This document shows positions 53,277 through 54,619 of a DNA stretch of 64,000 nucleotides, in pieces; position 1 is the stretch's first letter; every line of letters begins with the position of its first letter. Source of the stretch: Eledone cirrhosa. Its lineage: Eukaryota. The stretch is taken from the NCBI GenBank assembly GCA_964016885.1, contig OZ024741.1:237212001-237276000 (forward strand), in the 5' to 3' direction. The position numbers and the translations under genes were made by a program. A model generated the notes under the pieces. That model was not told the DNA's origin, ran no database searches, and was given only the letters and a program-made list of their open reading frames with translations.

Positions 53277-53319
53277 ACGATGCTGACGATAGCTAATAAG
53301 CTTGAAACTAGTACATCGT
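53277..53319 (+). ncRNA. Minimal type I hammerhead ribozyme (predicted cleavage after 53313)
   Basis: ACGATG-CTGACGA-TAGCTAATAAGCTT-GAAA-CTAGTA-CATCGT; perfect 6-bp stem I. Confidence 0.87.
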
Positions 53320-53900
53320 TCCTGTGTCAGTGTTGAACAAAAAGGTGACGTAGTTGCCTAAACACTGTACGGTGTAATTCGGGCTGTTTGTTTGTTTACA
53401 AACAAACAAAACGAGCATTATAATAAATGTTCGGTAAACCGATACGTGCATATATATGTGTGCATGTATGTTTATATATACATACTACTGTACGTCTGTA
53501 TACATATATGTATGTACTTATACATACATACATAATTATATATATATATATATATATATATATATATATATATATATATATATATATATATATATATATA
53601 TATATATATATATATATATATATATATATATATATAAACGGAAAAAATGAAACGAAATTTCATTTCCCACTCTTAGTACGGCTGTTACTTAAATATAAGT
53701 ATGTACACGTACATACATATATTTATACAGACGTACAGTAGTATGTATATATATATACATACATGCACACATATATATATATGTACGCATGGATTCACCG
53801 AACATTTATTATAATGCTCGGTGTTTGTAAACAAACATCCCGTATTAAGCCGTAGTCTCTAGCAACCATCGTTGCTCGTTTGTTCATCACTGACAAAGGA

Positions 53901-53943
53901 ACACTGTACTAGTTTCAAGCTTATTAGCTATCGTCAGCAACGT
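53901..53943 (-). ncRNA. Minimal type I hammerhead ribozyme
   Basis: ACGTTG-CTGACGA-...-GAAA-CTAGTA-CAGTGT; stem I kept through two G-U pairs. Confidence 0.82.
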
Positions 53944-54619
53944 ATACCTTCCTGCCAGATTGTTGAACGTATATACTTACCTTATGCATATTAACGGCTG
54001 AGTAGCACAATTTGCATATCGAGTGGGTTAATCGGCCGGGTGCACCGAAATCGATAAACGGAAAAAATGAAATGAAATGAAATTTCCCACTCTTAGTACG
54101 GCTGTTACTTAAATATAAGTATGTACACGTACATACATATATGTATACAGTCGTACAGTAGTATGTATATATATATATATACATACATGCACACATATAT
54201 ATATATGTACGTATGGATTCACCGAACATTTATTATAATGCTCGGTCTGTTTGTAAACAAACATCCCGTATTAAGCCATAGTGTCTAGCAACCACCGTTG
54301 CTCGTTTGTTCAACGCTGACAAAGGAACGCTGTACTAGTTTCAAGCTTATTAGCTATCGTCATATATAGCTATTTGTAAAACTGTTATATATTGTATTTT
54401 GTCTGATGAAGGCATACCATAATTTAATATGGTATCCCTGAAATATGTATAAATATAGTTTCCATTTATTAATATCGTATATCTACTCCAAAAACTTGTC
54501 GAGTGCTTTATATAAGTTATACAAATATTTACTTGTTGTATCCCAACAACTTTAAATAGAACTTTTGCATATATATATATATATATATATATATATATAT
54601 ATATATATATTCTAATCAA

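What the first reader, a model, noticed from the sequence alone, without database searches (positions are those of the whole stretch)
53277..54362. Sister family keeps ribozyme pairing despite divergence
Seen: the flanks diverge from the 24-25 kb family, but the ribozyme changes are tolerated ones. CUGAUGA becomes CUGACGA (variable position 7), the stem II loop AACA becomes AAUA, and stem I goes from ACGGUG/CAUCGU to ACGAUG/CAUCGU to ACGUUG/CAGUGU, all still pairing. The unit is ~420 bp rather than 466 bp. Inference: selection on cleavage across at least three subfamily variants.
Basis: partly seen in the sequence, partly recalled or inferred. Interest (0 to 1): 0.75.

Follow-up and report, generated by a model that had tools for sequence, protein, structure and literature searches.

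The report
Hammerhead retrozyme, fold conserved between families
These are decaying copies of a very abundant non-coding jumping repeat that carries a predicted self-cutting RNA; its core and base pairing are kept between the repeat's families, likely because only cutting-competent copies spread, but inserted copies mutate freely, so this is a clear example of a known kind of element.

Summary
They belong to a type I hammerhead in a 424-468 bp non-coding repeat with 27,265 core matches in this 3.0 Gb animal genome. The stretch is two insertions of two subfamilies, tail to tail in one (TA)n tract. The third hammerhead is 5'-truncated.

It is a private CpG change (family form CAGCGU) that weakens stem I from -5.2 to -0.4 kcal/mol (predicted).

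Selection on the fold is supported, but by other data. Subfamily-level changes hit 0 of 11 core sites against 59 of 181 flank sites, and 13 of 18 pairs change on both sides across families. Inserted copies decay almost neutrally: 10.5% of flank-anchored copies have a broken core or spacing.

Best reading: a non-LTR retrozyme, likely cleaving as a dimer and likely copied by a Penelope-like element (two-armed insertions, 14 of 16 with one long and one short end). Cleavage and circular RNA are untested. This scan reported the same family and architecture on other DNA of this genome. New member of a known kind.

The parts
52879..53045 (-). Left (inverted, 5'-truncated) arm of insertion A, subfamily B1, outer part; ends at the 'long' terminus into (TA)n; no hammerhead
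53046..53148 (.). About 100 bp of an unrelated short repeat that interrupts the left arm
   Evidence: related text also near 54620-54930
53149..53231 (-). Left arm of insertion A, inner part up to the inversion point
53231..53535 (+). Right arm of insertion A (subfamily B1), less than one unit, ends at the 'short' terminus into (TA)n
53277..53319 (+). Type I hammerhead: stem I 5' strand 53277-53282, CUGACGA 53283-53289, stem II 53290-53303 (U.U at the base), GAA, palindrome ACUAGU 53307-53312, predicted cut after A 53313, stem I 3' strand 53314-53319
   Evidence: sequence
53536..53636 (.). (TA)n tract shared by the 3' ends of insertions A and B (likely target)
53637..54362 (-). Insertion B (subfamily B2), about 1.7 units of 426 bp; 3' end at the 'long' terminus (53637), 5'-truncated inside the second hammerhead (54362)
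53901..53943 (-). Hammerhead with intact core and the private CAGUGU change in stem I (base 53903)
54327..54362 (-). Truncated hammerhead: C3 and the 5' strand of stem I are missing; 3' strand CAGCGU (family form)
54368..54570 (+). Fragment of the terminal repeat (pLTR) of a Penelope-like element, with its own decayed type I hammerhead (CUGAUGA at 54403; a deletion removes the 3' strand of stem I), head to head with insertion B
23966..25704 (.). Comparison locus, subfamily A (466 bp): - arm 23966-24383 (short end) and + arm 24380-25704 (long end), four hammerheads, identical units
59378..64000 (+). Segmental duplicate (98.3%) of 51923-56589, holding the same three hammerheads; its B2 copy has GAAA changed to GGAA in the core

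Best explanation
The stretch holds two truncated, decaying insertions of a non-coding repeat family with a type I hammerhead fold, likely a non-LTR retrozyme whose RNA is predicted to cut itself as a dimer and is likely copied into (TA)n tracts by a Penelope-like element. Shown: the hammerhead letters, the copy numbers, the subfamily structure, the absence of shared core changes, two-sided pair changes between families, near-neutral decay of inserted copies, fixed 3' ends into (TA)n and two-armed insertions. Inferred: a multimer is transcribed; two neighbouring hammerheads swap strands through the palindrome ACUAGU (a single one has only one stem III pair) and cut after GUA; unit RNA circularises; a Penelope-like RT-endonuclease primes on it at two fixed sites about 59 nt apart and runs round it, giving tandem, 5'-truncated, inverted arms. 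Only source copies that still fold and cut would found new subfamilies, which leaves the conservation seen between families. The copies at 53-54 kb have no two complete hammerheads in tandem and are likely dead on arrival.
For: Core pattern 27,265 matches, control 0. In 100 copies chosen by flanks only (63 insertions, all matches in the first 26.3 Mb of C1): shared variable sites core 0/11, core+stem II+stem III 1/23, flank 59/181 (Fisher P 0.019 and 0.003). Fifteen real copies from subfamilies A, B, D and families C, E: 90.7% of cells paired, 13 of 18 pairs change on both sides, score 0.53 against 0.02-0.14 for slid controls. Family C (5,407 matches, control 8) has flanks homologous to A/B (z 3.9-8.4) and a replaced stem II (GUUGU/ACAAC) and stem I (AUAUUG/CAAUAU); stem I was not in the search pattern and stem II pairing was not required. 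With the loop of stem III left free, 98 of the first 100 matches are still palindromic (ACGCGU, ACAUGU, ACCGGU). At pair 2.3-1.3 the mismatched forms are rare (243 U.U and 144 R.G of 24,966), and in 11 of 12 U.U loci with a sister unit the sisters lack the U.U. Seven units fold as circles at z -4 to -11. Of 114 terminal arms, 103 stop in the two end classes, mostly running into (TA)n, and 14 of 16 classifiable two-armed insertions pair a long with a short end (P 0.002). A hammerhead-bearing Penelope-like element is abundant here and its own terminal fragments show the same long/short two-armed form in 2 of 2 pairs read in full. Published parallels: PMC7229834 (axolotl: one-pair helix III with palindromic loop, U.U at the base of helix II, efficient only as dimers), PMC8557442 (inverted arm, tail, microsatellite targets).
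Against: Rfam finds no hammerhead here, at gathering score or at E up to 10. G10.1-C11.1 is absent (U.U in A/B, C.A in about 1,000 D copies). A single hammerhead does not fold better than shuffles (z -1.1 to +0.2). Families C and E were found with patterns that demand the core, so their core conservation is by construction. Covariation cells count related sequences and rest on a handful of independent events (about five lineages); 'further pair types' did not exceed shuffles (382/500). Family E's flank homology is weak (one of six comparisons clearly above shuffles). Part of the circle-folding z comes from a self-complementary AT-rich tract. The unit has no similarity to the one pLTR family tested, so the partner element is not identified. 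In Xenopus 8 of 9 tested retrozyme dimers did not cleave in vitro. Flanks near the hammerhead are also conserved (they extend stem I), so some of the constraint may be on the rod fold rather than on catalysis.
Confidence: 0.8

Rival explanations
1. The units are the terminal repeats (pLTRs) or 3' ends of an autonomous Penelope-like element, left as 5'-truncated insertions; the hammerhead is selected on that element, not on a free small RNA.
For: Same insertion anatomy as Penelope-like elements; Xenopus retrozymes match pLTRs; many copies are shorter than two units.
Against: Long head-to-tail arrays of the unit alone. In 27 of 250 loci a Penelope fragment lies near a unit, but mostly across (TA)n or at a truncation point and in varied places. 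The tested element has a different pLTR and hammerhead. Only one Penelope family was tested.
Confidence: 0.1
2. The conservation is shared ancestry plus constraint on a long RNA hairpin for packaging by the RT; the hammerhead is a catalytically dead relic (U.U or C.A at 10.1-11.1, one-pair stem III).
For: Non-canonical 10.1-11.1; no Rfam match; conserved extended stem outside the core; most Xenopus dimers inactive.
Against: Unpaired core bases have no shared change while 33% of flank sites do; changes fall at N7, loop 2 and H17 (A, U, C, never G in the families seen), which are the free positions by established hammerhead knowledge; the axolotl U.U ribozyme cleaves as a dimer.
Confidence: 0.07
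3. Selection acts on the genomic copies themselves (a host function).
For: Private core rate is somewhat below the flank rate (0.70% against 1.18%; core plus stems 0.82%, P about 0.10).
Against: The difference is not significant; 10.5% of flank-anchored copies genome-wide are broken in core or spacing; the window's own duplicate carries GGAA for GAAA; 228 scattered matches carry C or G at stem II position 10.2, mostly single mutants.
Confidence: 0.03

Closest known systems
Metazoan non-LTR retrozymes (Cervera and de la Pena 2020, PMC7229834; passages and parts 2-3 of 6 read), closest: axolotl HHR_Amex1/HHR_Amex2
   Same: Type I hammerhead once per unit; tandem non-coding units of low GC; tens of thousands of copies; several families per genome; one-pair helix III with palindromic tetraloop (Amex1); U.U at the base of helix II (Amex2); predicted self-paired circle.
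   Different: Both weakening features sit in one ribozyme here; units of 424-468 bp are at or above the 150-450 bp given there; a graded series of families with two-sided changes; two-armed insertions with two fixed ends; expression, circles and cleavage not shown here.
Non-LTR retrozymes as non-autonomous Penelope derivatives (Li, Clavereau, Pollet 2026, 10.64898/2026.07.22.740005; parts 1-3 of 5 read)
   Same: Co-occurrence with Penelope-like elements; monomers, dimers and multimers dispersed over chromosomes.
   Different: That work is mainly on vertebrates and finds pLTR homology; here no homology to the one pLTR family tested. By their definition (two consecutive complete hammerheads) the 53-54 kb locus is not an active copy.
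Penelope-like elements and their hammerheads (Craig et al. 2021, PMC8557442, passages; Cervera and de la Pena 2014, PMC4209133, part 2 of 4)
   Same: 5' truncation, partial tandems, inverted 5' arm, an extension at one end only, (TA)n targets, palindromic helix III, dimeric cleavage model.
   Different: No ORF in the unit; the end offset is about 59 nt rather than 30-40 bp; G10.1-C11.1, highly conserved in those motifs, is absent in subfamilies A, B and D.

Membership tests
Type I hammerhead ribozyme | Core CUGANGA, GAAA and NUH in type I order with helix I open | tested here: met
   Sequence at 53277-53319 and 53901-53943; not met for the truncated copy ending at 54362
Type I hammerhead ribozyme | Helices I and II supported by compensatory change | tested here: met
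   5 of 6 stem I pairs and 4 of 5 stem II pairs change on both sides in 15 copies; few independent events
Type I hammerhead ribozyme | G10.1-C11.1 pair | tested here: not met
   U.U in A/B, C.A in D, G-C only in family C; a U.U variant is published as active in dimers
Type I hammerhead ribozyme | Stable helix III, or palindrome allowing a double hammerhead | tested here: met
   Palindrome ACUAGU; 98 of first 100 alternative loops also palindromic; predicted duplex -4.8 kcal/mol
Type I hammerhead ribozyme | Loop 1-loop 2 tertiary contact | tested here: inconclusive
   U-AA(C/U)A-A loop and an internal loop in stem I are kept in all families aligned; contacts not modelled
Type I hammerhead ribozyme | Match to an Rfam hammerhead model | tested here: not met
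   No hit at gathering score or at E up to 10
Type I hammerhead ribozyme | Site-specific self-cleavage | not testable with these tools
   Needs in vitro transcription
Non-LTR retrozyme | Tandem non-coding units of a few hundred bp, one hammerhead each | tested here: met
   Units 424, 426, 434, 466, 468 and 310-311 bp; no credible ORF in the units
Non-LTR retrozyme | Low GC (<45-50%) | tested here: met
   0.34-0.38
Non-LTR retrozyme | Highly self-paired circular monomer | tested here: met
   Predicted only: z -4.0 to -11.2 against 25 shuffles each, 7 of 7 units; partly due to an AT-rich hairpin
Non-LTR retrozyme | Expressed as linear and circular RNA | not testable with these tools
   See Tried and rejected
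Non-LTR retrozyme | Target-site duplication longer than 4 bp | tested here: inconclusive
   Ends run into (TA)n, which hides any duplication
Non-LTR retrozyme | No LTR, PBS or PPT | not tested
   No LTR-like layout in the locus maps; PBS and PPT were not searched
Non-LTR retrozyme | Two consecutive complete hammerheads (definition of an active copy, Li et al. 2026) | tested here: not met
   Not at 53-54 kb (one complete per insertion); met at 24-25 kb and in many other loci
Penelope-derived non-autonomous element | Inverted 5' arm, fixed 3' ends with one-sided tail, (TA)n target | tested here: met
   103 of 114 arms in two end classes; 14 of 16 pairs long+short
Penelope-derived non-autonomous element | Sequence homology to the pLTR of an autonomous partner | tested here: inconclusive
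   None to the one family tested; other families not tested

The most novel reading that the evidence does not exclude
This genome holds a natural mutational series of over 50,000 hammerheads in which the ribozyme has been tuned to be an obligate, attenuated dimer. The canonical 10.1-11.1 pair is given up (U.U, C.A) in the most successful lineages while the stem III palindrome covaries (UA, GC, AU, CG). That would mean selection on the RNA circle favours strand-swapped, slow cleavage, so that circles persist as rolling templates for a Penelope RT.
Probability: 0.25. Interest if true: 0.6.

Novelty: new member of a known kind. Interest (0 to 1): 0.33.

Why it matters
It separates two things that an alignment of copies mixes: purifying selection on the few source elements that keep transposing, and near-neutral decay of the inserted copies. 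That supports the view that retrozyme hammerheads serve the element and not the host. The family series gives ready-made natural variants (U.U, C.A and G-C at 10.1-11.1; UA and GC palindromes) to test the double-hammerhead model, and the two-ended insertions bear on the unsolved Penelope integration mechanism. The kind of element is known, and this scan has noted the same family elsewhere in the genome.

Tried and rejected
Rfam: nothing at gathering score; at E up to 10 only sub-threshold hits, mostly microRNA models on AT-rich hairpins, rejected as chance. Folding single hammerheads: not better than shuffles. Sequencing runs: no RNA holder listed, which is no evidence on expression. Runs X4-X6 gave 4-15 contigs each and were not used; X1 was used only for letter frequencies, and it may be the same organism or source as the assembly. 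CAGUGU as a subfamily: rejected. U.U at 2.3-1.3 as an amplified intermediate subfamily: rejected, mostly private changes on mixed backgrounds (15 of 243 loci read). Hidden families with other stem II and ACUAGU: one search gave mainly single mutants (228 matches) plus a small C-like array (L262). Unit as pLTR of the L199/L210 element: no similarity. Chimeric insertion (retrozyme arm plus Penelope arm) at 54362-54368: both arms have 'long' ends, against the long+short rule, so not claimed. Pfam scan of two RT fragments: no hit; the Penelope assignment rests on recalled motifs, the C-terminal GIY-YIG-like region and Atlas neighbours with HTH_animal/GIY-YIG on 24-99% of members. One search used a mis-registered structure and is superseded.

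Full report
Observation. The quoted letters are present. A + strand hammerhead has C3 at 53283 with stem I ACGAUG/CAUCGU. A - strand one has C3 at 53937 with ACGUUG/CAGUGU. A third ends at 54362 and lacks C3 and the 5' strand of stem I. The 24-25 kb copies have ACGGUG/CAUCGU, CUGAUGA and loop AACA. Cut sites on the - strand are 426 bp apart (424 in the duplicate). The stretch 51923-56589 is duplicated at 59378-64000 (98.3%) and again just beyond the window; the duplicate's B2 copy has GGAA in place of GAAA.

Anatomy of the locus. Two insertions meet tail to tail in one (TA)n tract. Insertion A (subfamily B1) has an inverted left arm at 52879-53231, interrupted by about 100 bp of another repeat, and a right arm at 53231-53535 with one hammerhead. 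Insertion B (subfamily B2) runs 54362 to 53637 on the - strand, about 1.7 units. Its truncated 5' end abuts a fragment of a Penelope-like terminal repeat (54368-54570) that has its own decayed hammerhead. Neither insertion has two complete hammerheads in tandem.

The family. The window lies in a 3.0 Gb genome. The core plus stem II pattern has 27,265 matches (control 0) and a flank-only pattern 23,635. Subfamilies differ at N7, loop 2 position 3, pair 2.3-1.3 and the distal stem. A further subfamily D has C.A at 10.1-11.1 and a GUU site (most of 1,293 matches). Family C (468 bp, 5,407 matches, control 8) has flanks homologous to A and B (z 3.9-8.4). Family E (310-311 bp, most of 20,829 matches, control 299) has the same hammerhead geometry but only weak flank similarity, so its kinship is uncertain.

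The B2 form is ACGUUG/CAGCGU. The sister unit in the same insertion has CAGCGU, 3 of the first 100 genome matches have CAGTGT, and 99.4% of summed contig depth in run X1 reads the family base. The change is a CpG transition that preceded the local duplication. Predicted stem I energy is -0.4 kcal/mol against -5.0 to -5.6 for the three real subfamily forms and -1.3 for a U.U mismatch. Family C amplified with a stem I of -1.9, so a weak stem I alone does not prove inactivity.

Test of selection. I took all 100 flank-anchored matches in the first 26.3 Mb of contig C1 (63 independent insertions). Private non-CpG substitutions per site were 0.70% in the 11 core bases (4.5/641), 0.8-1.0% in the stems and 1.18% in flanks (107/9078). 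The core deficit is not significant (Poisson P 0.13-0.23; core plus stems P about 0.10). Seven of the 100 copies have a core change. Genome-wide, 21,149 of 23,635 keep ten core bases at exact spacing, so 10.5% are broken by substitution or indel. Changes shared by three or more insertions, which mostly mark subfamilies, fall on 0 of 11 core sites and 1 of 23 core plus stem II and III sites, against 59 of 181 flank sites (Fisher P 0.019 and 0.003). At pair 2.3-1.3, mismatched forms are 387 of 24,966 and the U.U form is mostly private (absent from the sister units in 11 of 12 loci with a sister). So inserted copies decay close to neutrally, and the lineages that amplified kept core and pairing.

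Covariation. On 15 real copies, 90.7% of cells pair, 13 of 18 pairs change on both sides and the score is 0.53 against at most 0.14 for slid controls. Stem II goes AGCU/AGCU, UUGU/ACAA, UUCU/AGAA around the same U-AANA-A type loop. The stem III hexamer stays self-complementary in 98 of the first 100 matches where its centre was left free. Limits: rows are related and give only a handful of independent events; C and E were found by core patterns, so their core conservation is not evidence; the count of further pair types did not exceed shuffles.

Mechanism. A lone hammerhead has one stem III pair closed by CUAG and a U.U at the base of stem II; it folds no better than shuffles and Rfam misses it. 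Both features are described in axolotl retrozymes, which cleave poorly as monomers and well as dimers (PMC7229834, parts 2-3 read), and the dimer model dates from newt satellite RNA (PMC6155905, passages). I infer strand-swapped cleavage through the palindrome, then circularisation; units fold as self-paired circles closed by an extended stem I (z -4 to -11). Of 114 terminal arms, 56 stop at or near a short end and 47 at a long end about 59 nt further on, mostly into (TA)n; 11 were unclassified or ran on. Of 19 divergent arm pairs, 16 were classifiable and 14 pair long with short. Inverted arms, a one-sided tail and microsatellite targets are Penelope hallmarks (PMC8557442, passages). A Penelope-like element with a hammerhead in its terminal repeat is abundant here (141 scored matches of 68,737 first-look candidates, ORFs to 743 aa) and shows the same long/short form in two pairs. 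Its terminal repeat is not similar to the unit, so the partner is unidentified. Cleavage, expression and circles are untested; in Xenopus 8 of 9 tested dimers did not cleave (10.64898/2026.07.22.740005, parts 1-3 read).

Comparison and novelty. It works like a metazoan non-LTR retrozyme and meets the sequence-level criteria, apart from G10.1-C11.1 and, at this locus, the two-hammerhead criterion. Earlier notes of this scan describe the 422-nt family with two fixed ends 59 bases apart, the 310-nt family, and the same selected-source, neutral-copy pattern in another family. I had seen the two end positions but tested the pairing rule after reading that note.

Verdict. Real feature, partly misread. 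Selection on the hammerhead is supported between families, not by the three variants cited. New member of a known kind; interest 0.33.

Noticed in passing
window 54368-54570 (and duplicate near 61790-62000): Penelope-like terminal repeat fragment with a second type of hammerhead (long stem II, AUAU-type palindrome), joined head to head to the truncated retrozyme across about 5 bases; L230 shows a similar head-to-head join with family E.
   Followed up: partly
window about 21560-21605, - strand (CTGA at 21596): Decayed copy of a further hammerhead-like family; a better copy in L191 reads GUCA CUGAAGA ... GAAAGAACUU UGAC.
   Followed up: no
window 51923-56589 and 59378-64000; L229: Tandem segmental duplication with a period of about 7.45 kb, at least three copies, 98.3% identical.
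   Followed up: partly
L199 / L210:665-6760: Near full-length Penelope-like element (743 aa frame, RT plus C-terminal GIY-YIG-like region) with a hammerhead in its terminal repeat; many relatives with long frames.
   Followed up: partly
L240, L254, L230, L246 (310-311 bp family E): About 20,000 hammerheads with palindrome ACGCGU; 10.1-11.1 is U.U or A-U; long two-armed arrays.
   Followed up: partly
L091-L119 (subfamily D): About 1,000 copies with a C.A mismatch at 10.1-11.1 and a GUU cut site; a few have C-G.
   Followed up: partly
L262, L263: Array of alternating C-like units (about 469-470 bp) with a GUC site and mismatches in stem II.
   Followed up: no
L047, L135, L152; L121, L144: Different retrozyme insertions end against the same neighbouring sequences across (TA)n, which suggests nested use of tracts left by other elements.
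   Followed up: no
window 55291-55435 and 62690-62840: 20-bp tandem repeat (about 7 copies) followed by GC-richer sequence that looks like the start of another mobile element.
   Followed up: no
L063, L074, L146 and others: C15.2 to U (GAAAUUAGUA) recurs in three independent insertions of different subfamilies; it would keep the palindromic duplex through G.U pairs.
   Followed up: no
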